Positions 6,526 to 19,677 are shown, counted from the first letter of the stretch. The stretch: 32,000 nt of DNA from Candidatus Poseidoniaceae archaeon (GCA_943789275.1 CALSTM010000003.1:390001-422000); one strand, 5' to 3'. Notes: a model not told the origin generated them from the sequence alone. Numbers and translations: made by a program.

Positions 6526-9228
6526 ATGTCTACGAATGAAGAGAGCGAAGTCTTTCTCTCGTTCGATGACGAGGTACCTGCTATTCCCGAACCCGTGTTA
6601 GGTCCGAATTCACCCAAATCTCGGATACGTGCCTTGAGAAAGTCCGTCAAAAAATCGCAACCTGAAGTCCTTGATGCGGAGATTCTTGATGCTTCAATAG
6701 TCACTCAAGCAACCGGAGTTTTTGATGTGAGTTGGCCTTTGCTTGGGATGGATTGTCCAGATTGTGCAAGTAAAGCCACCCGCGCTTTGAATTTCCTCCC
6801 TCAAGTGAAGTCCACGAAAGTTTCCGCCACGGCTGGAAAGGTGACCATCGAGGTCGATCTTGAATACGGTTCGTTGTCCGAAGCCTCGTCCGTACTCCGT
6901 TCATTAGGTCACGCACCCGATGTTGCCTTCCATGAAATTGTCGGCGTTCGCAGTTCCCAAGTCGCTCAGCGAAACGAAGTTGACCAGCGTAAATTGATGA
7001 AAATTATCAAACAACAACCCGGTATTTTGGATATCGAAATTACCGATGATGAACGCATTCTCCTGCAACTGGCTACAGAAGTTTCGAAAGAAATCTTCGA
7101 AATCCGTGATGCTTCGCTTTCCGAGATTATCGGTTCACCTGTACGCTACGTTCAGGCCGAGTCAAACCGTATCCGTCCAGACCAATGGCGATTGATTGGT
7201 GGAGGCATTGCACTTCCCCTTCTCATTTTGGTTCTTCTCGGAGAAATCATTGGCCTACCTGAATATGTTCTTGCAGCGCTTGCTCTACCTGGCTTGGCCA
7301 TTGGCGGTTCTCAAATGTTCAAAGAAGCGGCTGCAAGTATTCATAACAAGCAACTTGGTTTCCAAGTTCTCACCAGTCTTGCCGTGATTGGGGCAGCCAT
7401 TCTTGGAATGTGGGAAGAGGCGCTTGTTGTTGCTATTTTGGTCGCTTTTACCGCACATTTAGAAGGCGATGCCCTTGTCAAAGCGCGCAAAGCCATGCAA
7501 GGTGGCCTCGATCGTTTACCGCGTACTGCTCGAAAGTTGACAAGCAGTAAACCTAAGCATGCATCAGAACTTGTGAACTCAGGTTTTACATTGCAGATGG
7601 CAGCCCCTGCTACTGGCCCCCTTATCGGCGCTGATGGCTGCGCTCTTCCAGACCCTGAAGCCTCGCATGAAACCGTTCCCATTGAACTCATCCGTATTGG
7701 CGACTCCATCGAGATTCGAAGCGGAGAACTCATTCCTGCTGACGGGGTAATTATTGATGGCCATGGTTCACTGGACAAGGCACCTTTGACCGGAGAGTCC
7801 GTTCCAGTCGAAGTATCCAACGGAGATGAGATACAAGCCGGATTGGTTCTTGCCCGCGGCCCCGTGGTCGTACGAGTGACTGCAGTAGGCGATAATACTC
7901 GCCTGTCCGGACTTATTGATGCAGTTCACACCTTCCGTGAAGAACCCCCTCGGTTGCAGAGCAGCATTGAACTTTTCACTGCGATATGGGTCCCTGTTGT
8001 CCTTCTTGGAGCGGTCGCTGTTTGGTATTTCATGTTCCCCGAGAATTGGAAAATCATCCTGTTGATATGGGTTGTTGCATGTCCTTGCGCTTTGCTTTTG
8101 GCAACTCCAGTGCCGCACGCTGCAGCTCTGTCACGCTCAGCCCACTTCGGGGCTATAGCACGAGGCGGCGATGTGATTGAACGTCTCTCTCGAGTCAACC
8201 ATATACTCCTCGATAAAACGGGAACACTGACCTCTGGTAAACCTCGATTAGGCGAAGTCATCATGTCGAAAGGTAAACAACGCTCTGCTGCGCTGAAACT
8301 CGCAGGTGGCCTCGAAGCCCGCTCTTCTCACCCATATGCATTATCCGTGATGGATTACCTCAAACAAGAACAAATTGTTCCAACTCCGGTCACTGCGATT
8401 TCAGACATTGAAGCGGGCGTGAAGGGCATAGTTGGTGGAAAAGAAGTGATGTTCATTCGATTTGACCGTGCAGCATCGCTCAAGGTAAGCGTCCCTGACG
8501 ATTTGAAAACTGCATACGCTGCTGCTGAGGCTGACGGTCATGGGGCAAGTTTACTGGTTCGAGGAGGAGAAGGGATTGCTTTGGTTACGTTCATTCACGA
8601 TGATACCCATGCCGGAAGCAAGGAATTGATTTCGTCGTTAAAGAAACGTTCGATTAATGTGGAAATACTCTCAGGAGACCATCAATCTGCAGTTTCCGCT
8701 TTTGCGAAGAACGTCGGTTTACCCGAATCTGCTGCACACGGCGGTTTCTCTCCAGAACAGAAAGTAGACTGGGTAAGGAACCGTTCAAAAACGCACATCA
8801 CCATGATGGTTGGAGATGGATTCAATGATGCTGCGGCATTGGCTCTGGCCGATGTTGGCGTCGCTGTGGGCACCGGTGAGACCGTGAACCTCGAGGCAGC
8901 GGATGTTTTGATTCCGAGTGACAATCCTCTCATGCTTACCGATTTGGTCGACTTAGCACGAAGTGCTCAACGCATCCTCATAGGCAATCTTTTGATTTCA
9001 GTTGGAATCACTCTCGCGCTGGTTGCTGCGGTTATTCTTCAATTGTATGACGAGTTGTGGGTTGGCGTTCTTATTCACGAAGCATCGGTCATCCTTGTCA
9101 TCTTGAACGGAGCACGGCTTGCAGGAGGGGAAGGAGCAGTAACCCTCCTGCGTTCAATCTTCAGCTCATTATGGGTGGACACCAAAGAAGCCTTCAAACT
9201 CCTCAAGTTACGGTATCAGCCCCAGTGA
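6526..9228 (+). CDS. Heavy-metal translocating P1B-type ATPase (Zn/Cd/Co-class exporter, specificity unresolved)
   Basis: ATG start. N-terminal HMA domain with GMDCPDC. TGES (PLTGESVP). TM6 CPC (VVACPCALLLATP). DKTGTLT phosphorylation site. SSHPYA (HP motif). MVGDGFNDAAAL hinge. The last TM carries HEASVILVILNGARL. Confidence 0.9.
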   Translation: MSTNEESEVFLSFDDEVPAIPEPVLGPNSPKSRIRALRKSVKKSQPEVLDAEILDASIVTQATGVFDVSWPLLGMDCPDCASKATRALNFLPQVKSTKVSATAGKVTIEVDLEYGSLSEASSVLRSLGHAPDVAFHEIVGVRSSQVAQRNEVDQRKLMKIIKQQPGILDIEITDDERILLQLATEVSKEIFEIRDASLSEIIGSPVRYVQAESNRIRPDQWRLIGGGIALPLLILVLLGEIIGLPEYVLAALALPGLAIGGSQMFKEAAASIHNKQLGFQVLTSLAVIGAAILGMWEEALVVAILVAFTAHLEGDALVKARKAMQGGLDRLPRTARKLTSSKPKHASELVNSGFTLQMAAPATGPLIGADGCALPDPEASHETVPIELIRIGDSIEIRSGELIPADGVIIDGHGSLDKAPLTGESVPVEVSNGDEIQAGLVLARGPVVVRVTAVGDNTRLSGLIDAVHTFREEPPRLQSSIELFTAIWVPVVLLGAVAVWYFMFPENWKIILLIWVVACPCALLLATPVPHAAALSRSAHFGAIARGGDVIERLSRVNHILLDKTGTLTSGKPRLGEVIMSKGKQRSAALKLAGGLEARSSHPYALSVMDYLKQEQIVPTPVTAISDIEAGVKGIVGGKEVMFIRFDRAASLKVSVPDDLKTAYAAAEADGHGASLLVRGGEGIALVTFIHDDTHAGSKELISSLKKRSINVEILSGDHQSAVSAFAKNVGLPESAAHGGFSPEQKVDWVRNRSKTHITMMVGDGFNDAAALALADVGVAVGTGETVNLEAADVLIPSDNPLMLTDLVDLARSAQRILIGNLLISVGITLALVAAVILQLYDELWVGVLIHEASVILVILNGARLAGGEGAVTLLRSIFSSLWVDTKEAFKLLKLRYQPQ

Positions 9229-9296
9229 TGTTCCGCTTCGTCGCTTCACGCGGCATATTCAAACCTTAGGAGCATCTCTCAGCCAACGGTGAGAAG

Positions 9297-9809
9297 ATGG
9301 CTCGAGTTCGCGCAGACCCCGTGACCACCGCACTTGCCCACCCTACACGTAGAGCACTGTACATCGCTCTTGCTGGTACTGAAGAGATGAGCACGGTGCA
9401 ACTGCAGACAGAAGTGGATGTTGAACGATACAACCTCTATCATCACTTGAAAAAACTCGCATCCTTAGGCTTGGTAGAGAATCACAGAGATGTCGGACGG
9501 GCACGATGGTGGAAAAAAACGGCCCACGTTGACCTACCTGAGATACTCACATCCCGCTCCAACTCTGCCTCTGTACCCGCGCCTGCTTCGGTCGAAGTCG
9601 GCGTCGGAGATCATGATTCTCTTCCCGCCACACTTTCAGAAGCCGTGTCAGATGCCGGGGAAATTCACATTCTTCAACTCGAAGGTTCCCGGGATCAAGT
9701 CGGTGCAAAGCGAGTGTTGGAACTTCTTGCTCAAGAGCACGGTATTGAACTGAACCTCCCCTGGAATTTCCTTCCAGCCAGCATCGCTTTGATTGCGAAG
9801 AAAAAATAA
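9297..9809 (+). CDS. ArsR/SmtB-family winged-helix transcriptional regulator with a roughly 80-aa C-terminal extension
   Basis: The sequence AHPTRRALYIALAG..MSTVQLQTEVDVERYNLYHHLKKLASLGLVE matches the ArsR HTH core. GGTGA lies 4-5 nt upstream of the ATG. No obvious alpha3 (CxC) or alpha5 (DxHx10HxxH) metal site is visible. Confidence 0.75.
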   Translation: MARVRADPVTTALAHPTRRALYIALAGTEEMSTVQLQTEVDVERYNLYHHLKKLASLGLVENHRDVGRARWWKKTAHVDLPEILTSRSNSASVPAPASVEVGVGDHDSLPATLSEAVSDAGEIHILQLEGSRDQVGAKRVLELLAQEHGIELNLPWNFLPASIALIAKKK

Positions 9810-9861
9810 AATCAACACGTAGAAGCAAACATCTCAAGAGGAGAGAACTGGAGCGGTAGGT

Positions 9862-10254
9862 ATGAGCGAAGAACTGACAGTTGAATCACGCATTTCACCA
9901 CCTGCTCTCTCTTGTCCCAAATGCGACGGTCTGCTTCCCAATGAACTGGGTGAACTCACTTGTACCCTCTGCGATGCCCGTGTACGTGTCGATCATCCGG
10001 TCACCCGTAGAAAGTGGAGTGAAGAGAAGATCGGTTGCCCAGAATGCGGTAAAGTACTCGTGACTGGTGTAGATAAGCGCCCGGCCCATTTACGCTGCGC
10101 TTCGTGCTCAACACACTTCACCCTCACCCCTCACATACCACGAGTGGAAGTTTCGTGTCCCGGATGTGAACGCCAATTGAGAATGAAACGCAGGCCAGGT
10201 GAACGGCAAATCGATTGCCCTGCATGTTCAAAGAGTTTCAAGGTCACCTTCTGA
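9862..10254 (+). CDS. Small protein made of three tandem CxxC...CxxC zinc-ribbon modules (MJ0042-like zinc fingers)
   Basis: Twelve Cys arranged as CPKC-x16-CTLC, CPEC-x18-CASC and CPGC-x16-CPAC. Each second pair is followed by a short beta-like segment (RVRV, HFTL, SFKV). GGAG lies upstream of the ATG. Confidence 0.7.
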   Translation: MSEELTVESRISPPALSCPKCDGLLPNELGELTCTLCDARVRVDHPVTRRKWSEEKIGCPECGKVLVTGVDKRPAHLRCASCSTHFTLTPHIPRVEVSCPGCERQLRMKRRPGERQIDCPACSKSFKVTF

Positions 10255-10372: not shown

Positions 10373-13174
10373 ATGAACAACAACCGTATGAGAGTCGTTT
10401 TCGTTAGCCTAATTATGATTTTTTCAAGTCTTGCTGGATGTCTTGGTGATGAAGAAATTGAAGCAATTGAAGAGGCCACTGACCTCTTGGATGATGGAAC
10501 AAATTCCACAATGGATGGAAACAATTCGACCGTTTTGGGCGTGTTGGGAAGCGTCATGGTTTCAACATACCACATTGGAGAACTCGTGAAAGGAATTGCC
10601 GGCGAACATGTCGATATGGAATACATGAGTCTTGACAACATTCCAGTCCACGATTTTGAGCCATCAGCTTCAGATCTCATACGATTGCAGAACTCTGATG
10701 TTTTCTTCTACCACGGATTGGGACTCGAGCCTTGGGTCGATGCAACTCTCGATTCACTTGGTAGCGACGCTCCTACCGCAATTCAAGTCCACACTATGCC
10801 AGATGGAGAGGCTACACTTGACTATGAATCTCTCCTCGTATCCAATTTGTGCGAGACTCTTTCCGAAGGGCCGTACGAAGCCGTTGAACTTGCTGACGAA
10901 GAAGAACACGCTGACGATGTAGAAATCCACGCTGAATTCGTCGCACACAACATTTCTTTTGCTGAGGATGACCACGATGACCACGATGACCACGGTGAGG
11001 AAGACAATCACACAGAGGATGGTCATGACGTCCATGCTGGTGAGGAAGAGGAGCATGACGATCATGGCGATGGTCACGAAGGCCACAACCACGTTGAGGC
11101 TGAAGAAACCATTGCCAACCCTGCAGGATGCCCTGCTGACACAATGATCTCCATCTTCCACCTTGAAGAAGGAGAATATGTCCTTGAATTCGATGCTGAA
11201 CACGCTGAAGATTTCACCATGGCAGTTCTCAAGATGCTCGGCGGCCACGCTCACCACGACCACGGAGACGAGCACGGAGACGAGCACGGTGACGAACATG
11301 GCGAAGAAGGACACGGCGTTTGCCATGACATGTCTGACCACTCCAACAATGACATCGACAATGAAGAGGACTGTGAAGCAGGCGGATTCATCTGGATGGA
11401 AGAAGACGACCACGATGACCACGAAGGCGATTATTGTCACGATACAACAACGCATCAAAACACGAACCACACCACTGAGGCAGACTGTGAAGCAGCAGGT
11501 CACATGTGGATGGAAGAAGACGGACATGACGGCCACGATGATCATGACGGTCACGAAGACCACATGACTCCAGAACAAGCGCTCGAAGATTGCGATTCAA
11601 ACAACGACAGTTACATGTCTTGGGATGAATTTTCGGATTGCTATCATGATGACCATGATGACCATGATGAGCACCATGAGGAACACCACAACGTTGTTGT
11701 CATGTACCCCGACAACAGTATGGCAATGTACGAAGCCGAACACGACGCTCTACCAGAAAACGCTACAGGATGGAACCTAACGCACGCTGCTTTGATGGTG
11801 AATGGTAACATGAATGTCAACATCACGACCCATCCAGATTACGGTACCAGCCTGAACGGCATCAACGGAACCGATGCTCCTGATGACTATTCATGGTACT
11901 GGCAACTCCTGCTTTGGAACTCCACATCCACCCCCCCCTCATGGGAGTCAAGCGAACATGGAATTGATTCAGTTATGATTGGTGAAAATTTCAGTAACCT
12001 TTTGGGCTCCGGTGCATCTGTATCCGAACACATCGCTTGGATGGCAAACTCATCGAACATGTCCCTCTTGCCTGACCCAACAATGATGGAAGACGACCAT
12101 GATGAACACGATGACGGCCACGGTACAGACATGGTATGCTACGATATGAGTACCCACACAGTCAACCCAGCCTATACAACTGAAGCCGATTGCGAGGCTG
12201 CTGGCCTCATGTGGACCGCAGGAACAAGCGGGCCAGGCGACCTGATGACCGATGACCATGAGGACCACGTCGAACTTACCGAAGGACAACTTATGGAAGC
12301 GTTCAACGCATCAGATGCTGATGGTGACCAATTGTTGAACATCTCCGAAATCGGTGAACTCATCGAAAGGATTGAAGAACTCGAAGAGGGTGACCACCAC
12401 GCTGGATACATGACCATTCACATTCAAGCAGAAGGTGACTATGGCTTTGCTCTACCAATGGATGTAGAATTCCATATCCTGATGGGCGAAGGCGGCCATG
12501 ACGACCACGCAGGCCATGATGACCACGACATGGCAAAAGACGATACACGACGACCACGCTGGCGAAGAACGACTGATGACCACGAAGGCGAAGAAGGCGA
12601 TGACCATGATGACCACGCTGGCGAAGAAGGGGCTCTTGATTACGACCCACACAGTTGGCTCAACCCACTTGCTTTCATGGCTCAAGCCAGCATCGTTGAG
12701 GACGCTCTAACCGCTGCTTTCCCTGCTGGCGAGGAAGTCTTCAAGGCAAACGCTGCGAGTTACACTACACAGTTACTTGCTCTTCACGTTGCTTTTGATA
12801 CTGCCTTCGGAGAAGGTGGAGCTTGTATGGTTGAAGGTCAAGAAAAGATCGTGGCTGCTAACCACAACGCCTACTCCTACATCGCAGTACAATACGATAT
12901 TCAATTCATGACTGTCCACGGCCTTGACCCTGAAGGAGAACCTTCTCCTGAAGATGTTGCAAAGGTTGTTGACTTCATCAATGAAGAAGGAATCACTGTT
13001 CTGTTTGTAGAGGAATACACCGATCAATCAGCAGTGCAAAGCATTGTTGATGAAACCGGCGTATCGATTCAAACCCTTTACACCATGGAAATGGCACCAA
13101 GTGATACTGATGACACGTACATGACCATGATGACCAAGAACTTGGAAAACCTTGTTGCCGGAATCGGTTGCTGA
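10373..13174 (+). CDS. znuA: ZnuA/TroA-family (cluster 9) zinc-binding lipoprotein with a roughly 616-aa His/Asp/Glu-rich multi-module insertion
   Basis: Signal peptide plus lipobox (FSSLAGC). The N-lobe has PVH(93)DFEPSASD and LGLEPWVD. The C-lobe has DPH(760)SWLNP, ANH(831)NAYSYI and VLFVEEYTDQS. His at the third ligand position is the Zn-type rather than Mn/Fe-type signature. Residues about 141-756 occupy the position of the family's His-rich loop. Confidence 0.85.
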   Translation: MNNNRMRVVFVSLIMIFSSLAGCLGDEEIEAIEEATDLLDDGTNSTMDGNNSTVLGVLGSVMVSTYHIGELVKGIAGEHVDMEYMSLDNIPVHDFEPSASDLIRLQNSDVFFYHGLGLEPWVDATLDSLGSDAPTAIQVHTMPDGEATLDYESLLVSNLCETLSEGPYEAVELADEEEHADDVEIHAEFVAHNISFAEDDHDDHDDHGEEDNHTEDGHDVHAGEEEEHDDHGDGHEGHNHVEAEETIANPAGCPADTMISIFHLEEGEYVLEFDAEHAEDFTMAVLKMLGGHAHHDHGDEHGDEHGDEHGEEGHGVCHDMSDHSNNDIDNEEDCEAGGFIWMEEDDHDDHEGDYCHDTTTHQNTNHTTEADCEAAGHMWMEEDGHDGHDDHDGHEDHMTPEQALEDCDSNNDSYMSWDEFSDCYHDDHDDHDEHHEEHHNVVVMYPDNSMAMYEAEHDALPENATGWNLTHAALMVNGNMNVNITTHPDYGTSLNGINGTDAPDDYSWYWQLLLWNSTSTPPSWESSEHGIDSVMIGENFSNLLGSGASVSEHIAWMANSSNMSLLPDPTMMEDDHDEHDDGHGTDMVCYDMSTHTVNPAYTTEADCEAAGLMWTAGTSGPGDLMTDDHEDHVELTEGQLMEAFNASDADGDQLLNISEIGELIERIEELEEGDHHAGYMTIHIQAEGDYGFALPMDVEFHILMGEGGHDDHAGHDDHDMAKDDTRRPRWRRTTDDHEGEEGDDHDDHAGEEGALDYDPHSWLNPLAFMAQASIVEDALTAAFPAGEEVFKANAASYTTQLLALHVAFDTAFGEGGACMVEGQEKIVAANHNAYSYIAVQYDIQFMTVHGLDPEGEPSPEDVAKVVDFINEEGITVLFVEEYTDQSAVQSIVDETGVSIQTLYTMEMAPSDTDDTYMTMMTKNLENLVAGIGC
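11261..11308 (+). repeat. 12-nt tandem repeat (4 units) encoding (HGDE)n inside znuA
   Basis: The units are cacggagacgag, cacggagacgag, cacggtgacgaa, catggcgaagaa. The array is in frame (HGDEHGDEHGDEHGEE) and is slippage-prone. Confidence 0.8.
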
Positions 13175-13350: not shown

Positions 13351-13440
13351 TGAAAGTCCGATTGATTGTTCGAATTGAATGCAAAGAACTCACCCAACAT
13401 GGTAGTGCTTAATATGCAACCTCTAGCGGTCGGTCAAGTG

Positions 13441-14262
13441 ATGAAACAATCGGAATCAATCCTCGACATCAAGGATTTGACCGTCAGCCGTTCGGGCAAG
13501 GTTGTTCTCAACAAAGTCGATTTGGCAGTAAAGAAAGGTGAATTTATTGGCCTTGTGGGGCCGAATGGTAGTGGTAAATCAACGCTTTTACTTGCTATAC
13601 TCGGTGTTTTGAAAGCCCAGCAAGGAACCATCGATATATACGGCCATAAACCGATGTCCAGAAATATACTTGGCAAAATTGGTTGGGTCTCTCAAGCTGC
13701 TGCAGTGATGCCGAAGAACGTCCGAATCACTGTTCGAGAACTTATTCAACTTGGAACTTTGAACTCGAGGAACATGTTCTTGAGAAGAAGAAGTATTCAT
13801 CGAGAGAAGGTCGACAGGGCAATGGAAATGGTCGGTTTAGAAGGTGTTGGAGATCATGCCATCGCTCGACTCTCTGGAGGGCAACGTCAGCGTGCTGTTA
13901 TTGGCCGAGCTTTAGCATCCGAAGCAGAATTTATTTTGCTTGATGAACCTCTTGTAGGCATTGACCGCAACTCTCGCAACTCATTGTTGAAGTTACTCGA
14001 CAAACTTTGTCACGACGAAAACAAGACAATTCTCATGGTATCACACGACCTTGCTGCTATACGTCAGACTGCCCATCGTATGATTTACCTCGAAGAATCG
14101 ATACGATTCGATGGACCGACTCAAGAGTTCCCGGACCTCACAAGTCTTGCTGGACTGCGAGGTATTGAGCCGGTGCATGGGCATGAACATGAAACGAATA
14201 TTTCGAATTCTATTATGATCGAAACCGATAACGCAGAACTGTCCAAAAAGGAGGAAGAATAA
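13441..14262 (+). CDS. znuC: ABC transporter ATP-binding protein, ZnuC-type
   Basis: Walker A GPNGSGKST, signature LSGGQRQR, Walker B ILLDEP, H-loop SHDL. The ORF-track start 13366 is TTG. ATG options are 13399, 13414 and 13441, and 13441 gives the family-typical spacing to Walker A. The C-terminal tail contains HGHEHE. Confidence 0.85.
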   Translation: MKQSESILDIKDLTVSRSGKVVLNKVDLAVKKGEFIGLVGPNGSGKSTLLLAILGVLKAQQGTIDIYGHKPMSRNILGKIGWVSQAAAVMPKNVRITVRELIQLGTLNSRNMFLRRRSIHREKVDRAMEMVGLEGVGDHAIARLSGGQRQRAVIGRALASEAEFILLDEPLVGIDRNSRNSLLKLLDKLCHDENKTILMVSHDLAAIRQTAHRMIYLEESIRFDGPTQEFPDLTSLAGLRGIEPVHGHEHETNISNSIMIETDNAELSKKEEE

Positions 14263-15176
14263 TGGGAATCGGTATGATGATTTTAGACTTGGTTTCTCCG
14301 ATTCTCGAGTTCATTGCACCGATGGTTCCGGGAGATACTTTTCCATATTTCTTCACTATGGAAATGTTTCAACGTGCACTTGTTGCAGCAATACTGGTAA
14401 CAATGGTTGCTGGTGTACTCGGCTCGTTTTTGTTGATTCGAAACCTTGCACTTATTGGAGATGGTTTAGCTCACGTTTCTTTTGGTGGTGTGGCTGTAGG
14501 CGTAGTATTAGGTGCTTCATCACCACTCTGGTACGCATTGGTATTCAGCGTGATTTCGGCGATCATCATTCATGAAATGCAGACCAGAGAATTGCTTACA
14601 GGCGATGCTTCAATTGCGATATTCTTGACCGGAATGCTGGCACTGGGGCTGGTTGTTTTACGCGTATTTGGTGGAGGTATCACAAGCGATATTGAAGGAT
14701 ACCTGTTCGGTAGTTTACTTCTTATTGATGAGCAAAGTCTTGATTTAATTGCCACCATCACGATTCTATCACTCATTTCACTTATGGCACTCTATTCTGG
14801 TTTGCTTTCGACCACCATTGACCCGCTTGCTGCACGCGTTCAGGGGCTTCCAGTTCGAGCGATTGGGCTTGTGTTCAGCATCATCACTGCGGCTGTAGTT
14901 GTGAGCATGGTTCAAGTGATTGGGGCTTTACTTGTCACGGCGTTACTGGTAACGCCAGCTGCTACGGCACAATTGGTTGGTCGCAGTTTCCGTTCTTGCC
15001 TCATTTGGACACAAATCTTTGGTCTTTCTGCCGTTTTCCTCGGCCTGTATTTTTCTGCAGAACACGATTCTGGAAGTGGAGCGATGATTGCGCTTGTTGC
15101 AGCTTCCCTTTTTGCCATAGTGGCCATTTTCAAAACCGTCGTTCTCGGTTTGATGAGTCCGAAGGATAACTTCTAA
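14262..15176 (+). CDS. znuB: ABC-3 family permease, ZnuB-type
   Basis: Polytopic hydrophobic protein following ZnuC with a TAATG stop/start overlap. GGAGG lies 8 nt upstream. A T5 run follows the stop. Confidence 0.85.
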   Translation: MGIGMMILDLVSPILEFIAPMVPGDTFPYFFTMEMFQRALVAAILVTMVAGVLGSFLLIRNLALIGDGLAHVSFGGVAVGVVLGASSPLWYALVFSVISAIIIHEMQTRELLTGDASIAIFLTGMLALGLVVLRVFGGGITSDIEGYLFGSLLLIDEQSLDLIATITILSLISLMALYSGLLSTTIDPLAARVQGLPVRAIGLVFSIITAAVVVSMVQVIGALLVTALLVTPAATAQLVGRSFRSCLIWTQIFGLSAVFLGLYFSAEHDSGSGAMIALVAASLFAIVAIFKTVVLGLMSPKDNF

Positions 15177-15239: not shown

Positions 15240-16040
15240 ATGCGTTTGATTCGTTGGCGTTTTATATCAGTCGGTGCAGCAACTCTCATGGGACAAAGCA
15301 AGTGTTCGTGGGTTTTGCTTTTGCTTCTTTTTTCGAGCTTAAGTGGCTGTTTATCGGGCGACCAGTCGGAATCATCTCTTTCCCTTAACGTCGTTGCTGA
15401 TATCGAAAACACCACTCTTGTCGAGACGTATTCCAACGGGGAATTGGTTTCTGTAACGAACATCTCGGTGATGTATGACTTTTCACAGACCACCTCGAAC
15501 CACCCACTGGTCACGTTCGGAATCGACCCTATGGATGGAAGATCTCCGACAACCGTAGATGCTGGCACCGAATCACAAATAGAAATGAATTTTGAAAACC
15601 ACGGAATCTACAACATTCTTGCCTACGCAATTGATTCAAACGGCGGCGAACAACGAATAAATCTCACGTTGCGAATAGACTTGATGATCGATTGGACCGA
15701 ATCGAATACCCGCAACCCGAAGGCATTGATTTTCGACCCCATACCGGTGAACGGTGGGCCAAATCCGACAATGGTTGAAATTCAATCAACCGTTGAAAAC
15801 CCCAGTTTCCTCGAAAATCTAGACAGCAGTTCTCAACCAGTTCAGGTGACTTGGAATATCGTTGATGAACTCGATGATGTCTGTCAGCAGAAAACCGCAC
15901 AAATTGATGACGGAGAATCAGATGATTGGTACACTTTGCACTTCAATACCTTTCTGGTTCACGAGTTGGAAGTGTCCTATGATGACGGGCAAGATACGGT
16001 GGACATCTCTCATTTGGTGACTATCTTGTATTCCTCATGA
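15240..16040 (+). CDS. Predicted secreted lipoprotein, unknown function (Ig/PKD-like beta-rich)
   Basis: Signal peptide with lipobox LLLLLFSSLSGC. Beta-rich, with a PKD-like segment (GIYNILAYAIDSNGGEQRINLTLRID). An alternative start is M17 at 15288. Confidence 0.5.
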   Translation: MRLIRWRFISVGAATLMGQSKCSWVLLLLLFSSLSGCLSGDQSESSLSLNVVADIENTTLVETYSNGELVSVTNISVMYDFSQTTSNHPLVTFGIDPMDGRSPTTVDAGTESQIEMNFENHGIYNILAYAIDSNGGEQRINLTLRIDLMIDWTESNTRNPKALIFDPIPVNGGPNPTMVEIQSTVENPSFLENLDSSSQPVQVTWNIVDELDDVCQQKTAQIDDGESDDWYTLHFNTFLVHELEVSYDDGQDTVDISHLVTILYSS

Positions 16041-17139: not shown

Positions 17140-19677
17140 ATGTCCATGAAGCACTGGATGGATACGATGGGAATGAGCGCAAGCAACAACGGCGATGCTC
17201 TCGAAGAGGCTCGCAAGAAGCGAGAAAATACCTCCAAAGTTTCCCTTTCAGCACTGCGTTCACAGTTCACTTCGACGGCTACATCCACCCTCGATCAAGC
17301 AACGATGACCAGTGCACGATTCCGGCAAGAAGAACGCCTGCGTGCAGACCTGCGTCGAGAACGTAGAATTCGACAGCAAGCAATTACCGAACGCGTATCA
17401 GCCATGCAAGAAGCGCTTGCAACTGATTTGGCCGTCCAGCATGAACTCACGCTCGACTCGCTTGAAAAGGAAATGAGAGAAGAAATGGAGCGTGACCTCA
17501 GCACATTGGAACGCGACTCACTTGCTCGGGAAGAATCCAGAATGCGTGGCGAACTCGATCTGCGCCTCAACAGACAATTAGAGGCGCTTCAAGATAAACT
17601 GGATGTTGAGCAAGACCGTCGTTTGGAAGAACACAAAGCCCAACTCAAAGCACAAATTGAGACCCAACTTCAAGACGAACACCGCCAAAGACTCGATATT
17701 CAAAAAGAACGCTTGGCTATGGACTACAATCAAGAACTTCAACGCCGAGTTCGAGAAATTGAAGCGAACATCGAACTTGAAATGGAAGACCGTTTCAAAG
17801 ATATGGAAGTTGCAGAAATATCACGACTTGAGGAAGGGCATGCAGCACGCCTTGCTGAACGTGAAGAACAACTTCGACGAGGTATCCGCACTCGCCTTGA
17901 ACAGCAACTCCGTTCTCGCCTCAAGCAACGTGAAGCACGGCTCAAGGCAGAATACGAACGTCGTAGTTTGCGTCTTGAAGAAGACATTGCAGAGCAATTA
18001 CAGATGGAACTCGAAGGCCAATTGCGCAAGGAAACTGAAGATTTAGAGGAACGAATGCGAGAGGATGTCGAACTGGCTCTTGCTCGGCGACGTGATGAAC
18101 TTCGTGTCGAAATCGAGCAGCAATTACAGGCTCGCCATTCAGAACGCTTGTCCGACCGTAAATCCAGGCTTCGTGAAAAGTACGACATTACCTTCTCGAA
18201 AGCCATTGATGACATCTCCCGTTCGCTCAAATCCGATGTAGAATCTGAACTCGAAGTTCGAATGGATGAAGAATTTACCAGTTACAGAACAGCTCGTGAA
18301 GCAGAGATTCAGAACCGTCTCGCACGCTTCCGTTACGAACGGGAAGCAGAACTACGTGAGCAACTTGAAGATCAATACAATTCGAAGAAAACGGATTGGT
18401 CCGAGCGTTTGGAATTGGAGTTCCAATCCCGGGAAGCATCTGCTCGAAAGGCGATTATGTCCGAAGTGGATGCCGGCCTAAGGAACGAAAGACTCACCTT
18501 TGAAACAGACCTCGACCTTCTCAAAGAGGAAACTTCGCTTGAACTGGAAGTGGAAATGGAAGAACGCCTCAACAACTTCCGGGTGCGCAAGGAAGAAGAA
18601 GTCGCTACACAATTAGAGCGACAACTCGACAAGCGTGAAGAAATTATGCGAAACAAAGCACTCATCGATGTACGAAAGCGTGAAACTCACATTCGGGCAG
18701 AAATTGAGGCACAACTTGGCCTCAAGAGAGCAGAAATCCGTACTCGCTTACAGAGTCTAAGTGAGAAAATGGACGCTTTCAAAGATATGGCTGAGGACAA
18801 GATGCGGGATGCAATCACCGGTCAAATCGAAGGCGAACTTAATGCTGAAGAATCTGATTTGAAGACCAGAGAATCTGAATTCCGAGACCTTCAATCAACC
18901 GATACTCGAGCTGAAAAGCGCCAAATGTGGATGCAATCAATCTCCGGACAAGGCCCGGCACAAACTGGCAGTACAATGAATCCATCCGCACTTGGCGCAC
19001 GCCCAGATGCACTTGGTTCAAGCGGAGGCCGACCAATGCGTGGCATTCTCGAAGGTCAACAACAAGCGCCTCAATCTCGAATGGGCCTGGGCGGGATGAG
19101 AACACCAATGACCAGTTCAAAGCCGCTTCAACCGCTAACAGGTGTTCCGCTCGCTAAACCTGTCAAGGCCCCACTTGGCGGTGGAGTTTCACAGCAATTG
19201 CCTCAGCCTGTTCAAAAGTTGGTCCGTAAACCACTCTCGCCGATTACTTCGCCACTCGCAGAGACTCAAATGGAGCAAGTGCCTGAACCAGTGAGTGAAC
19301 CTGTGATTGAACCGGAAGTTGAAGCAGAAGCACTACCGGATGAGCCAATCATCGAAGAGACGGTTGTTGAATCGATCACAGAAGAGATCGAGGAACGTGA
19401 AGACGGCCCTGAAATGACAGCCACTATGCGCCCAATCACTGCAGTTCTTCAGGCTCATGAAGCGCCTGAACCGGTTAAAACAACGACATTGACAGCACGC
19501 CCTCCACAGTTGATTCCAAAGAAATCCCGTGGAGCTCCTCCTCAATCGAAGGCCGGTGAAGTTCCTCAAACCGTTTCAACAACGACCTTGAAACCTGTTC
19601 GGAAACTCACTCCGTTGAAACTCACGAAACCGTCTTCAGATGAAGAGGAAGAAGTAGAGGCTGATTCTGACGAGTAA
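17140..19677 (+). CDS. 845-aa coiled-coil protein (E/R/L/Q-rich repeats) with a Pro/Gln-rich disordered C-terminus and acidic tail, function unknown
   Basis: ATG start. No signal peptide or TM. Residues about 60-600 are nearly continuous heptad-like E/R/L sequence with roughly a dozen recurrences of a [RK]x[EQ][ILV]Ex[QE]L... module. The C-terminus is P/Q/S/G-rich and ends in SSDEEEEVEADSDE. Confidence 0.6.
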   Translation: MSMKHWMDTMGMSASNNGDALEEARKKRENTSKVSLSALRSQFTSTATSTLDQATMTSARFRQEERLRADLRRERRIRQQAITERVSAMQEALATDLAVQHELTLDSLEKEMREEMERDLSTLERDSLAREESRMRGELDLRLNRQLEALQDKLDVEQDRRLEEHKAQLKAQIETQLQDEHRQRLDIQKERLAMDYNQELQRRVREIEANIELEMEDRFKDMEVAEISRLEEGHAARLAEREEQLRRGIRTRLEQQLRSRLKQREARLKAEYERRSLRLEEDIAEQLQMELEGQLRKETEDLEERMREDVELALARRRDELRVEIEQQLQARHSERLSDRKSRLREKYDITFSKAIDDISRSLKSDVESELEVRMDEEFTSYRTAREAEIQNRLARFRYEREAELREQLEDQYNSKKTDWSERLELEFQSREASARKAIMSEVDAGLRNERLTFETDLDLLKEETSLELEVEMEERLNNFRVRKEEEVATQLERQLDKREEIMRNKALIDVRKRETHIRAEIEAQLGLKRAEIRTRLQSLSEKMDAFKDMAEDKMRDAITGQIEGELNAEESDLKTRESEFRDLQSTDTRAEKRQMWMQSISGQGPAQTGSTMNPSALGARPDALGSSGGRPMRGILEGQQQAPQSRMGLGGMRTPMTSSKPLQPLTGVPLAKPVKAPLGGGVSQQLPQPVQKLVRKPLSPITSPLAETQMEQVPEPVSEPVIEPEVEAEALPDEPIIEETVVESITEEIEEREDGPEMTATMRPITAVLQAHEAPEPVKTTTLTARPPQLIPKKSRGAPPQSKAGEVPQTVSTTTLKPVRKLTPLKLTKPSSDEEEEVEADSDE

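What the first reader, a model, noticed from the sequence alone, without database searches (positions are those of the whole stretch)
10793..12640. ZnuA-type zinc-binding protein whose His-rich loop is expanded to about 616 aa and has become a multi-module array
Both lobes of a cluster-9 (ZnuA/TroA) solute-binding protein are present and intact. The N-lobe spans residues about 55-140 with ligand His93 in PVHDFEPS. The C-lobe starts at DYDPH(760)SWLNP, with H831 in ANHNAYSY. In characterised ZnuA proteins, the acidic/His-rich loop sits immediately before the DPHxWL histidine and is a few tens of residues long. Here exactly that position carries about 616 aa, two-thirds of the 933-aa protein, with 66 His by my hand count. 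The insertion is not just low complexity. It contains (i) DHDDH/HGDEH/HDEHHEEHH tracts. It contains (ii) two copies of a beta-hairpin-like module (MISIFHLEEGEYVLEFDAEHAEDFTMAVLKM and YMTIHIQAEGDYGFALPMDVEFHILM). It contains (iii) a thrice-repeated Cys-pair motif, (iv) two EF-hand-like loops and (v) a 120-aa beta-rich module. This looks like a high-capacity extracellular metal capture or storage antenna grafted onto an ABC-importer binding protein. I do not recognise it as a described architecture.
Basis: partly seen in the sequence, partly recalled or inferred. Interest (0 to 1): 0.85.

Follow-up and report, generated by a model that had tools for sequence, protein, structure and literature searches.

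The report
Giant modular archaeal zinc-binding protein
This gene encodes the zinc-catching surface protein of an ABC importer from Marine Group II archaea, in which a loop that is normally about 20 residues long has grown into a roughly 610-residue chain of small folded modules and histidine/acid-rich strings; the design is shared by the whole archaeal order but has not, as far as I could find, been described or tested.

Summary
ORF 10373..13174 (+) encodes a 933-aa lipoprotein. Residues 59-143 and 756-933 together form one cluster A-I (ZnuA/PF01297) domain with an intact AdcA-type His3+Glu site (H93, H760, H831, E906). Residues 144-755 (612 aa, 66 His, net charge -164) sit exactly where the His-rich loop belongs.

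It is not a misassembly. Every top relative carries a 333-835-aa ligand-to-ligand spacing. These come from Poseidoniaceae and Thalassarchaeaceae MAGs, single-cell genomes and long contigs. In every locus that reaches far enough downstream of znuA, znuC and znuB follow it.

The insert is nested. A family-specific beta-sandwich scaffold, split into three pieces, is itself interrupted by eight disordered His/Asp/Glu tracts and by accessory modules:
- three Cys-pair minidomains
- two EF-hands
- one probably DUF4430-like beta domain

The most likely function is a tethered, multivalent antenna that captures Zn and hands it to the primary site, suited to zinc-poor surface seawater. This is inferred, not shown.

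I found no paper describing the architecture. Databases label these proteins only as a zinc ABC transporter binding protein.

Verdict: a real, new variant of a known kind, of moderate to high interest.

The parts
10373..13174 (+). znuA-like gene: 933-aa substrate-binding lipoprotein with the giant insert
   Evidence: ORF; Pfam ZnuA E=1.3e-49 in 2 stretches; 727 homologues
10373..10441 (+). Signal peptide and lipobox (SSLAGC, Cys23)
   Evidence: Sequence. S18, G22 and C23 are invariant and the lipobox is present in nearly all homologues
10442..10546 (+). Acidic, poorly conserved tether (aa 24-58)
   Evidence: pLDDT about 40; covered by only 33/87 homologues, at 27% identity
10547..10801 (+). 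N-lobe of the cluster A-I SBP (aa 59-143) with ligand His93
   Evidence: Aligned to AdcA chain residues 5-76; H93 invariant; pLDDT above 90 over most of the lobe (blocks 78-96)
10802..10987 (+). Scaffold piece A (aa 144-205): helix carrying invariant Cys160, plus strands
   Evidence: Found in 114/121 relatives; part of the one-domain AF2 model, pTM 0.73
10988..11092 (+). His/Asp/Glu tract 1 (aa 206-240), disordered
   Evidence: pLDDT<50 for 206-237; 7 His and 15 D/E in 32 aa; 11-173 aa long across the family
11093..11245 (+). Scaffold piece B (aa 241-291), beta-hairpins; Cys253 is the presumed disulfide partner of Cys160
   Evidence: Single copy in 119/121 relatives; 67% mean identity; pLDDT 86-94
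11246..11317 (+). His tract 2 (aa 292-315: HAHHDH(GDEH)3...)
   Evidence: pLDDT<50; 12-nt tandem array at 11256-11295
11318..11518 (+). Cys-pair minidomains 1 and 2 (aa 316-344 and 354-382), separated by a DDHDDHE tract
   Evidence: 84-nt direct repeat D5; motif C-H-D-x4-H...C-E-A-A-G-x-x-W present 1-5 times in about 111/121 relatives; folded beta-beta-alpha-beta in AF2
11519..11563 (+). His tract (aa 383-397)
   Evidence: pLDDT<50 for 383-396
11564..11656 (+). EF-hand 1 (aa 398-428; loop D408-E419, flanked by Cys407 and Cys423)
   Evidence: Weak Pfam EF-hand_1 hit, E=0.0039; helix-loop-helix at pLDDT 92-95; homologues pass Pfam EF-hand thresholds
11657..11683 (+). His tract (aa 429-437)
   Evidence: pLDDT<50 for 429-436
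11684..12091 (+). Beta-rich accessory domain (aa 438-573), probably DUF4430-like
   Evidence: Present in only 36/121 relatives. Exhaustive phmmer gives 65 hits, including proteins with several DUF4430 repeats. 3/27 aligned members hit PF14478 directly. hhalign probability 70%
12092..12130 (+). His tract (aa 574-586)
   Evidence: pLDDT<50 for 574-585
12131..12226 (+). Cys-pair minidomain 3 (aa 587-618)
   Evidence: Motif CYDMSTH...CEAAGLMW; folded in AF2
12227..12274 (+). Linker and His tract (aa 619-634)
   Evidence: pLDDT<50 for 619-632
12275..12394 (+). EF-hand 2 (aa 635-674; loop D648-E659)
   Evidence: Pfam EF-hand_1 at 640-665, E=3e-4, 20.6 bits against a cutoff of 25.4; pLDDT about 95
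12395..12493 (+). Scaffold piece D (aa 675-707), three strands
   Evidence: Single copy in 116/121 relatives; packs with A and B into one domain
12494..12637 (+). His/Asp/Glu tract leading into ligand His760 (aa 708-755); the positional equivalent of the classical His-rich loop
   Evidence: pLDDT 34-43; aligned with the AdcA His-rich loop; 59-nt 1.9-copy repeat; 23-180 aa long across the family
12545..12568 (+). Out-of-frame repeat copy: TRRPRWRR in frame, HDDHAGEE in the +1 frame
   Evidence: absent from all 15 homologues inspected in this region
12638..13174 (+). C-lobe of the SBP (aa 756-933) with ligands His760, His831 and Glu906, and the invariant Cys818/Cys933 pair
   Evidence: Foldseek top hits AdcA, AdcAII and Lbp at rmsd 2.6-3.5 A; invariant columns
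13366..14262 (+). znuC-like ABC ATPase
   Evidence: PF00005, E=1.4e-30; follows znuA in every related locus that extends far enough downstream
14262..15176 (+). znuB-like ABC-3 permease
   Evidence: PF00950, E=5.5e-59; conserved synteny

Best explanation
What it is: the membrane-anchored substrate-binding lipoprotein of the ZnuABC-type (cluster A-I) zinc importer of a Marine Group II archaeon (Poseidoniales). Its two lobes and its His3+Glu primary site are ordinary.

What differs: the flexible His-rich loop that precedes the second ligand histidine is replaced by a nested insert of about 610 aa.
- A family-specific beta-sandwich scaffold is inserted into the loop.
- The scaffold is interrupted at two of its own loops. 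One interruption holds a His/acid tract. The other is an 'expansion slot' that holds variable numbers of Cys-pair minidomains (presumed disulfide-bonded), Ca-binding EF-hands and, in some lineages, a DUF4430-like beta domain.
- All of these are strung together by disordered (H/D/E/G)n tracts.

Inferred mechanism:
1. The roughly eight tracts (35 His, 70 Asp/Glu) plus His-bearing modules act as many weak, fast-exchanging Zn(II) sites on a flexible tether. This enlarges the capture radius and raises the local metal concentration.
2. The last tract (aa 708-755), which abuts His760, hands the ion to the high-affinity site. This is the role proposed for the short loops of ZnuA, AdcA and AztC.
3. The loaded protein then docks on ZnuBC.
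4. EF-hands (seawater holds about 10 mM Ca) and disulfides keep the modules folded and the tracts spaced.

Rationale: a cell without an outer membrane cannot retain soluble helpers such as ZinT or AztD, so the capture capacity is built into the anchored SBP.

Shown: architecture, family-wide conservation, operon context and ligand set. Inferred: metal identity, stoichiometry, hand-off, the Ca role and the disulfides.
For: Identity of the protein:
- One ZnuA domain split by the insert.
- H93, H760, H831 and E906 align with AdcA His63, His140, His204 and Glu279 (PMC7858048) and are invariant in 88 sequences.
- znuC and znuB follow the gene in every Poseidoniales locus that reaches far enough downstream.
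- A lipobox is present in nearly all relatives.

Structure of the insert:
- Folded modules score pLDDT 70-95 and the His tracts below 50.
- The three scaffold pieces fold as one domain, pTM 0.73. They are as conserved as the lobes: 56-67% against 65-70% mean identity, in 86-87 of 87 homologues.
- Length variation is concentrated in the B-D slot (48-568 aa; r=0.94 with total length).
- 66 His and net charge -164 in the insert.

Precedent for the mechanism:
- Short His-rich loops add 2 extra Zn sites in C. koseri ZnuA (PMC8900738).
- They aid Zn recruitment under Zn restriction in AdcA (PMC7858048).
- They are essential for Zn transfer in AztC (PMC7463823).
- In marine Dehalococcoidia a complete AztD zinc chaperone is inserted at the same loop, showing that this loop is a grafting point for Zn-capture devices.

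Ecology: Rinke et al. 2018 report that the zinc transporter is present in most Poseidoniales but absent from deep-water genera, and read it as an adaptation to Zn-poor surface water (PMC6461757).
Against: - No metal-binding measurement exists for any member.
- The function of even the short loops is called 'enigmatic' (PMC8900738). Deleting them gives mild phenotypes unless a second accessory region is also removed (PMC7858048).
- Marine Group II proteomes are acidic in general, so part of the Asp/Glu excess may be compositional.
- The Cys-pair minidomain has no known-function relative, the scaffold matches solved folds only weakly, and the DUF4430-like link is tentative. Their roles are therefore guesses.
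- The query's own EF-hands are below Pfam's threshold.
- NCBIfam equivalog cut-offs for AztC, ZnuA and AdcA are not reached, so Zn specificity rests on the ligand set and the His-rich character alone.
Confidence: 0.6

Rival explanations
1. Regulatory or buffering device. The His/acid array does not feed the transporter. Instead it senses or buffers external metal, for example by folding over or blocking the primary site when Zn (or Cd/Cu) is high, or by sequestering toxic metals at the cell surface.
For: A sensor role has been proposed for the Synechocystis ZnuA loop (cited in PMC8900738). In the closest relatives the gene lies next to a P1B heavy-metal exporter, an ArsR/SmtB regulator and a triple zinc-ribbon protein, which looks like a homeostasis island rather than a pure scavenging island.
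Against: That neighbourhood is conserved only in the nearest relatives, whereas znuA-znuC-znuB is universal. The transporter is missing from deep, Zn-richer genera (PMC6461757), which fits scavenging better than protection. Open-ocean surface Zn is rarely high enough to need a brake (general knowledge).
Confidence: 0.15
2. Mainly structural or spacer role. The insert is a stalk or surface-matrix element that lifts the binding lobes through the S-layer, or that mediates adhesion (as Lmb/Lbp bind laminin). On this reading the His/Asp/Glu tracts are tolerated low-complexity linkers that drift by replication slippage.
For: The tracts are encoded by 9-12-nt arrays and vary widely in length between close relatives. 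The accessory modules come and go. The DUF4430-like module also occurs in giant surface proteins with SLH or CHU_C anchors. A tolerated out-of-frame segment exists.
Against: A spacer would be expected at the N-terminal tether, not inside the metal-site loop. His is enriched 3.6-fold over the lobes and the tract His positions are near-invariant (H201, H221, H228, H235, H238, H240, H292-297, H709, H712, H715). The tract abutting His760 is present in 85/87 homologues.
Confidence: 0.12
3. A different or broader cargo. The system imports Mn, Co, Ni or Cd, or the DUF4430-like domain recruits a corrinoid, so the array is tuned to something other than Zn.
For: NCBIfam scores for the Mn-type MntC (114 bits) and the Zn-type AztC (121 bits) are similar, and both are far below their cut-offs. 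His/Asp/Glu tracts bind many divalent metals. DUF4430 is the Pfam family found at the C-terminus of transcobalamin-type B12 binders (PMC4350170).
Against: The ligand set is His3+Glu as in AdcA, AdcAII and Lmb, not the His2+Glu+Asp set of Mn/Fe SBPs (PMC7858048). His-rich loops are a hallmark of Zn-specific members (PMC7858048, PMC8900738). The DUF4430-like module is present in only 36/121 relatives, and the similarity is weak.
Confidence: 0.1
4. Assembly or annotation artefact: a chimeric or collapsed contig, or two genes fused by an error.
For: Low-complexity DNA; one local out-of-frame stretch; in at least one related MAG the gene is split by a frameshift.
Against: The reading frame stays open for 2.8 kb. 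The same order of modules recurs in over 100 independent sequences, including single-cell genomes and long contigs. The repeats are short and imperfect.
Confidence: 0.01

Closest known systems
AdcA / AdcAII / Lmb-type zinc SBPs of streptococci (cluster A-I; PDB 7JJ8, 3CX3, 3GI1)
   Same: Best sequence and fold matches. Lipoprotein anchored on a cell without an outer membrane. The His3+Glu primary site, with the His-rich loop at the same position. AdcA also carries a built-in accessory Zn-recruiting domain.
   Different: The AdcA loop is 17 residues (120-136) and its accessory ZinT domain is fused at the C-terminus (PMC7858048). Here there is no ZinT; the accessory material (612 aa) is inserted inside the loop and consists of unrelated modules.
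ZnuA of E. coli, Salmonella, C. koseri and Synechocystis
   Same: Same Pfam family, and the operon also encodes an ABC-3 permease and an ABC ATPase. A disordered His/acid loop adds extra Zn sites (PMC8900738).
   Different: The loop is about 20-25 residues. The protein is periplasmic and soluble, and the fourth ligand is Glu59 next to His60. The NCBIfam ZnuA equivalog score is 49 against a cut-off of 268.
AztC-AztD system (Paracoccus denitrificans) and the AztD-in-loop fusions seen here in marine Dehalococcoidia (L037, L038)
   Same: A Zn chaperone works through the same flexible loop (the D-loop) of the SBP (PMC7463823). In the Dehalococcoidia proteins the chaperone is physically inserted in that loop. 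This is the same design principle as in the window.
   Different: The Poseidoniales insert shows no similarity to the AztD beta-propeller. It is built from a beta-sandwich scaffold, Cys-pair minidomains, EF-hands and a DUF4430-like domain.
Other His-rich periplasmic or surface Zn recruiters (ZinT, PhtD, PA4063, Zcp/DUF4198)
   Same: Proposed role: low-to-moderate-affinity capture of Zn, with delivery to an SBP or transporter.
   Different: Those are separate proteins with their own folds. No sequence or fold match to them was obtained.

Membership tests
Cluster A-I metal SBP (Pfam ZnuA, PF01297) | Both alpha/beta lobes match one family profile in the correct order | tested here: met
   PF01297 at E=1.3e-49 and 169.6 bits (cut-off 29), in 2 stretches. 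PDB phmmer aligns residues 61-132 and 738-927 to AdcA chain residues 5-76 and 94-277. Foldseek top 50 hits are all cluster A-I SBPs.
Cluster A-I metal SBP (Pfam ZnuA, PF01297) | Four metal ligands at the canonical inter-lobe positions | tested here: met
   H93, H760, H831 and E906 align with AdcA His63, His140, His204 and Glu279 (PMC7858048). All four are invariant in 88 sequences.
Cluster A-I metal SBP (Pfam ZnuA, PF01297) | Encoded next to an ABC-3 permease and an ABC ATPase | tested here: met
   PF00005 and PF00950 lie immediately downstream. The order is conserved in every Poseidoniales locus that extends far enough downstream.
Cluster A-I metal SBP (Pfam ZnuA, PF01297) | Exported: signal peptide or lipobox | tested here: met
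   Hydrophobic N-terminus with SSLAGC; C23 is invariant. Judged by sequence pattern only; no dedicated predictor was run.
Zn-specific subgroup (ZnuA/AdcA/AztC equivalogs) | Reaches the NCBIfam equivalog cut-off | tested here: not met
   AztC 121 bits against 350; AdcA 62 against 700; ZnuA 49 against 268. The protein is therefore not an equivalog of any named Zn SBP.
Zn-specific subgroup (ZnuA/AdcA/AztC equivalogs) | His3(+Glu/Asp/water) site plus a His-rich loop before the second ligand His | tested here: met
   The ligand set is as listed above. The tract 708-755 (7 His, 18 D/E) aligns with the AdcA loop.
Zn-specific subgroup (ZnuA/AdcA/AztC equivalogs) | High-affinity, selective Zn(II) binding and Zn import | not testable with these tools
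   Needs ITC/ICP-MS and transport assays.
EF-hand (PF00036 / PF13499) | Helix-loop-helix with the 12-residue DxDxDG-type loop, passing the Pfam gathering score | tested here: inconclusive
   Two canonical loops (D408-E419, D648-E659) with flanking helices at pLDDT 92-96. The query scores 20.6 bits against a cut-off of 25.4. Homologues pass clearly: P0018 EF-hand_7 at 61 bits and P0044 EF-hand_1 at 65 bits.
DUF4430 (PF14478; C-terminal beta domain of transcobalamin-type proteins) | Match to the Pfam profile | tested here: inconclusive
   No direct hit for residues 438-573. The link is transitive: phmmer hits carry multiple DUF4430 repeats, 3/27 aligned members hit PF14478 with best E=4e-7, and hhalign against bona fide repeats gives probability 70% over 30 columns.
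PPC / collagen-binding-domain type beta-sandwich | Fold match to solved structures | tested here: inconclusive
AdcA-type two-domain SBP (SBP + ZinT) | C-terminal ZinT domain | tested here: not met
   The protein ends with the C-lobe at residue 933. There is no ZinT match in Pfam or NCBIfam.

The most novel reading that the evidence does not exclude
The conserved beta-sandwich may be a dedicated 'module rack' that evolved inside the metal-site loop of an ABC binding protein. On this reading its expansion slot lets Poseidoniales lineages plug in and swap Ca-dependent, disulfide-locked metal-binding cassettes. The cell-surface SBP would then be a tunable, high-stoichiometry (tens of ions) zinc reservoir and antenna whose size tracks ocean zinc scarcity. 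That would be a new class of tethered extracellular metallochaperone. The Cys-pair minidomain would be a previously unrecognised metal-binding fold.
Probability: 0.2. Interest if true: 0.8.

Novelty: new variant of a known kind. Interest (0 to 1): 0.6.

Why it matters
Marine Group II archaea are among the most abundant archaea in surface seawater (PMC6461757), where free zinc is scarce. If their only ZnuA-type binding protein carries a built-in multivalent capture array 30 times longer than any characterised His-rich loop, three things follow.
- It would show how an uncultured, outer-membrane-less plankter competes for zinc, which bears on ocean Zn cycling and on reading metaproteomes.
- It would offer a natural, exaggerated test case for the still 'enigmatic' function of His-rich loops in zinc SBPs.
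- Together with the AztD-in-loop fusions of marine Dehalococcoidia, it would show that this loop is a recurrent grafting site for metal-recruiting devices.

The Cys-pair minidomain and the split beta-sandwich have no characterised relatives and could be new metal-binding folds.

Tried and rejected
- Pfam scan of each insert module on its own at E<=10: only weak EF-hand hits.
- Word-indexed homologue search with the beta module alone: 3 candidates, useless. The exhaustive search was needed instead.
- Profile of the beta module against PDB sequences: no hit at E<=1.
It was accepted once full-length homologues served as the alignment for the concatenated window construct.
- Foldseek of the scaffold against the PDB: only weak PPC/CBD and GOLD beta-sandwich matches.
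- Profile search with the scaffold: returned only short fragments of the same ZnuA family, with no other protein context.
- Literature searches for any description of the Poseidoniales or Marine Group II ZnuA architecture, or of domain insertions in cluster A-I loops, found none. Only open-access and bioRxiv text was searched.
- Sigma-70 and terminator scan: no better than shuffles, and not applicable to archaea.
- Downstream lipoprotein against the PDB, Pfam and NCBIfam: nothing.
- Rejected readings: an intein or mobile-element insertion (no such domains; the insert shares the host composition and is conserved in frame), and two fused genes (one ORF in all relatives).


Full report

The window holds one uninterrupted ORF, 10373..13174 on the + strand, of 933 aa.

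Pfam's ZnuA model (PF01297) matches at E=1.3e-49 in two separated stretches. The C-terminal stretch covers residues 738-929 and profile positions 97-262 of 263. A phmmer search of PDB sequences gives AdcA of S. pneumoniae (7JJ8) as best hit. Query residues 61-132 align to chain residues 5-76, and query residues 738-927 align to chain residues 94-277. The two ends are therefore consecutive parts of a single cluster A-I solute-binding domain. The roughly 600 residues in between occupy exactly the place of AdcA's His-rich loop.

Foldseek of the full AF2 model returns only cluster A-I SBPs among the top 50 hits. Residues 144-755 are 612 aa with 66 His (10.8%, against 3.0% in the lobes), 163 Asp+Glu, only 8 Lys+Arg and net charge -164.

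**2. Is it an artefact?**

No.
- The coding DNA contains only short, imperfect 9-12-nt arrays, one 84-nt two-copy repeat (the first two Cys motifs) and one 59-nt 1.9-copy repeat. Nothing here would collapse or chimerise an assembly.
- A search of 5.8 billion proteins found 727 relatives. The best 120 are all 519-1080 aa, and nearly all start with the same SSLAGC lipobox.
- Where both ligand motifs could be located, the spacing between the first and second ligand histidines is 333-835 aa, median 574. In the characterised SBPs aligned here it is about 75-90 aa (PMC7858048, PMC8900738).
- In GTDB species representatives the architecture occurs in Poseidoniaceae and Thalassarchaeaceae MAGs from many studies. 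It also occurs in single-cell genomes (AG-343-E09, AH-287-M04, AG-422-I18) and on contigs up to 533 kb.

The organism is therefore a Marine Group II archaeon, and the giant form is that order's normal ZnuA.

**3. The core**

By alignment, the ligands are His93 (PVHDFEPS), His760 (DPHSWL), His831 (ANHNAYSY) and Glu906 (YTMEM). They correspond to AdcA His63, His140, His204 and Glu279 (PMC7858048). All four are invariant across 88 aligned family members. This is the His3+Glu set of Zn-type members, not the His2+Glu+Asp set of Mn/Fe members.

Cys818 and the C-terminal Cys933 are also invariant, presumably forming a disulfide. The gene is followed by an ABC ATPase (PF00005) and an ABC-3 permease (PF00950). 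The order znuA-znuC-znuB is kept in every Poseidoniales locus that extends far enough downstream.

NCBIfam equivalog cut-offs for AztC, AdcA and ZnuA are not reached. The protein is a family member but not an orthologue of any named SBP.

**4. Anatomy of the insert**

AlphaFold2 with an 88-sequence alignment (mean pLDDT 77.8) gives a beads-on-a-string picture.

Segments with pLDDT<50:
- 206-237, 292-313, 345-351, 383-396, 429-436, 574-585, 619-632 and 708-755. These are the eight His/Asp/Glu tracts.
- 540-548, a ninth low-confidence segment that is a His-free loop inside the beta module.
- Together these nine segments total 166 aa, with 35 His and 70 D/E.

Segments with pLDDT of about 70-95:
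- 144-205, 241-291, 316-344, 354-382, 398-428, 438-573, 587-618, 635-674 and 675-707.

A phmmer census over the query plus its 120 listed relatives (121 sequences) separates a constant part from a variable part.
- Constant: pieces A (144-200), B (241-297) and D (675-708) are single-copy and present in 114, 119 and 116 sequences. They are as conserved as the lobes: 56-67% against 65-70% mean identity.
- Variable: the Cys-pair motif occurs 1-5 times in about 111 sequences, EF-hands vary in number, and the beta module is present in only 36.

When A, B and D are concatenated and modelled, using full-length homologues as the alignment, they form one compact domain. It has an N-terminal helix plus about ten strands, with pTM 0.73.

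Invariant Cys160 (helix) and near-invariant Cys253 (before the first B hairpin) presumably bridge it.

The architecture is a nested insertion: the sandwich sits in the ZnuA loop and is itself interrupted twice.
- Between A and B there is only a His tract, 11-173 aa across the family.
- Between B and D lies everything else, 48-568 aa. This explains nearly all of the length variation (r=0.94 with total length).

A profile of the scaffold retrieves only fragments of this same ZnuA family. Foldseek finds only weak resemblance to PPC/collagen-binding-domain and GOLD beta-sandwiches (best E=3.2e-4, TM 0.33-0.47). The scaffold appears family-specific.

**5. The accessory modules**

(a) Cys-pair minidomain.
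- Consensus: C-H-[DN]-x2-[TD]-H-[EQ]-N ... [DE]-C-E-A-A-G-[HFL]-x-W.
- Predicted as beta-beta-alpha-beta.
- Three copies here. In all loci I hold it occurs only inside znuA genes.
- It has no Pfam match. Conserved His and acidic residues make a metal site plausible, and the two Cys most likely form a disulfide in an extracellular protein (inference).

(b) EF-hands.
- Two canonical 12-residue loops, D408-E419 and D648-E659, with flanking helices at pLDDT 92-96. The first is bracketed by Cys407 and Cys423.
- The query's Pfam score is sub-threshold: 20.6 bits against 25.4.
- Homologues pass clearly, for example at 61 and 65 bits. JGI already labels some relatives 'ZnuA / Ca2+-binding EF-hand'.

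(c) The beta module, residues 438-573.
- An exhaustive phmmer scan of 1.84 billion representatives gives 65 hits.
- Besides ZnuA relatives, these include large surface proteins with 3-10 Pfam DUF4430 repeats (P0157, P0147, P0153, P0131), and a 4276-aa protein with 27 copies alternating with HYR_4C domains.
- Three of 27 aligned module copies hit PF14478 directly. hhalign of the ZnuA-embedded copies against bona fide DUF4430 repeats gives 70% probability over the YG..INGI...YW core.
- I call it DUF4430-like with moderate confidence. DUF4430 is the family found at the C-terminus of transcobalamin-type proteins (PMC4350170). No function follows from that here.

The 13 Cys are accounted for as the lipobox Cys plus six sequence-local pairs.

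**6. How the tracts evolve, and one defect**

The tracts are encoded by short in-frame arrays (GATGACCAC x3.6, ACGAGCACGGAG x3.3, and others). They differ greatly in length between close relatives, which is consistent with replication slippage.

In the window, residues 725-732 read TRRPRWRR, a basic patch in a protein that otherwise has about 1.8% Lys+Arg. The same DNA in the +1 frame reads HDDHAGEE, identical to the repeat unit 60 nt downstream. None of the 15 homologues inspected in this region has the patch. It is a copy of the repeat read out of frame between two compensating indels. It is either a tolerated mutation in a disordered tract or a consensus error.

In one related MAG (L015) the gene is split by a frameshift in the first tract. 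Many database 'proteins' of this family are such fragments.

**7. Context**

Upstream, in the nearest relatives only, lie three genes:
- a P1B heavy-metal ATPase with an HMA domain; TIGR01512 (Cd/Zn-type) scores above TIGR01511 (Cu-type)
- an ArsR/SmtB-type regulator
- a 130-aa protein made of zinc ribbons

Downstream of znuB is a 266-aa lipoprotein with no database match. It is also found next to znu genes in distant relatives (L013, L031, L036).

**8. Mechanism**

What is known of short loops:
- In C. koseri ZnuA the 20-residue loop creates two extra Zn sites, and its function is called 'enigmatic', either chaperone or sensor (PMC8900738).
- In AdcA the 17-residue loop and the ZinT domain together aid Zn recruitment under Zn restriction (PMC7858048).
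- In AztC the loop and its three His are essential for Zn transfer from the AztD chaperone (PMC7463823).

A parallel found here: marine Dehalococcoidia (L037, L038) encode AztC-like SBPs of about 790 aa in which a complete AztD (NF038015, E=2.4e-32, residues 194-572) is inserted at this same loop. A paralogue there has a pure His/acid loop of about 130 aa. Nitrosopelagicus has a loop of about 165 aa. The loop is thus a recurrent grafting point for Zn-recruiting material in marine microbes.

For Poseidoniales, Rinke et al. note that the zinc transporter is present in most genera but absent from deep-water ones, and read it as adaptation to Zn-poor surface water (PMC6461757).

Putting these together, the best-supported reading is a tethered multivalent capture antenna:
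1. Many weak His/Asp/Glu sites sit on flexible tracts.
2. Ca-loaded EF-hands and disulfide-locked minidomains on a beta-sandwich rack keep the tracts spaced.
3. Zn is concentrated near the primary site.
4. The terminal tract (708-755) passes the ion to the His3+Glu site.

A cell without an outer membrane cannot retain soluble helpers, which would favour building them into the anchored SBP. This is inference; I put it at about 0.6.

Rivals:
- a sensor or buffer role (0.15)
- a mainly structural or spacer role with drifting linkers (0.12)
- another cargo (0.1)
- an artefact (0.01)

**9. Comparison and novelty**

The protein is a member of the cluster A-I/ZnuA family: profile, ligands, operon and export signal all tested and met. 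It is not an equivalog of ZnuA, AdcA or AztC (tested, not met), and it lacks ZinT.

It probably works like AdcA, with built-in accessory recruitment, or like AztC-AztD, with transfer through the loop. It achieves this with unrelated parts and a nested topology.

I found no paper that describes the architecture. The two Poseidoniales papers that mention ZnuA or the zinc transporter use it only as an annotation or a tree marker. The sequences themselves are abundant in public databases under generic names.

I therefore rate it a new variant of a known kind, not categorically new. Interest is 0.6: a metal-homeostasis specialist would be surprised by a 30-fold expanded, modular, order-wide loop, and it offers a handle on the unresolved role of His-rich loops. 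However, the function is untested and the family itself is familiar.

Noticed in passing
window 12545-12568 (aa 725-732 of the ZnuA-like protein): The basic patch TRRPRWRR in a hyper-acidic tract is the repeat unit HDDHAGEE read out of frame between two compensating indels. It is absent from all 15 homologues inspected in this region. It is either a tolerated mutation or a consensus error.
   Followed up: yes
L038 4147-6522 and 6930-9326; L037 4165-6525 (marine Dehalococcoidia MAGs): AztC-like SBPs of about 790 aa carry a complete AztD zinc-metallochaperone beta-propeller (NF038015, E=2.4e-32, aa 194-572) inserted at the same His-rich-loop position. In L038 two such genes lie close together on the same strand. 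I found no paper mentioning such a chaperone-in-loop fusion.
   Followed up: partly
L037 6876-8234; L039 5857-7218: Other marine lineages have intermediate loop expansions. A Dehalococcoidia paralogue (452 aa) has a pure Asp/Glu/His loop of about 130 aa. A Nitrosopelagicus ZnuA (453 aa) has a partly helical His/acid loop of about 165 aa.
   Followed up: no
window 15240-16040 (+): A 266-aa lipoprotein (SLSGC lipobox) lies directly after znuB, with no Pfam, NCBIfam or PDB match. Relatives lie beside znu genes even in distant Poseidoniales (L013, L031, L036), so it may be an unrecognised accessory component of the system.
   Followed up: partly
window 6526-10254 (+): A metal-homeostasis cluster sits upstream of znuA: a P1B heavy-metal ATPase with an HMA domain (Cd/Zn-type model scores above the Cu-type), an ArsR/SmtB-family regulator (170 aa) and a 130-aa protein made of zinc ribbons with several CxxC pairs. 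It is conserved only in the closest relatives (L001, L002, L006, L007, L008).
   Followed up: partly
L015 6001-8536; short hits: In at least one MAG the giant znuA is split into two ORFs (270 aa + 604 aa) by a frameshift in the first His tract. Many database entries of this family are 100-290-aa fragments even on contigs of 100 kb to 1.5 Mb, so gene calls for this family are often broken.
   Followed up: partly
P0141 (4276 aa), P0157 (2038 aa), found with window aa 439-573: The beta module of the insert recurs up to 27 times in giant surface proteins, alternating with HYR_4C domains and ending in a CHU_C sorting domain. It also appears as 10 DUF4430 repeats with SLH domains. It is therefore a mobile extracellular module, not something unique to ZnuA.
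   Followed up: partly
window 17140-19677 (+) and 19-5532 (+): An 845-aa Glu/Arg-rich coiled-coil protein has no family match, and its best aligned segments are 89-98% identical in related loci. This gene, not a second His-rich gene, explains the positive AT skew at 17-19 kb. Separately, a 1837-aa ORF carries only an InhA-like MAM domain hit.
   Followed up: no
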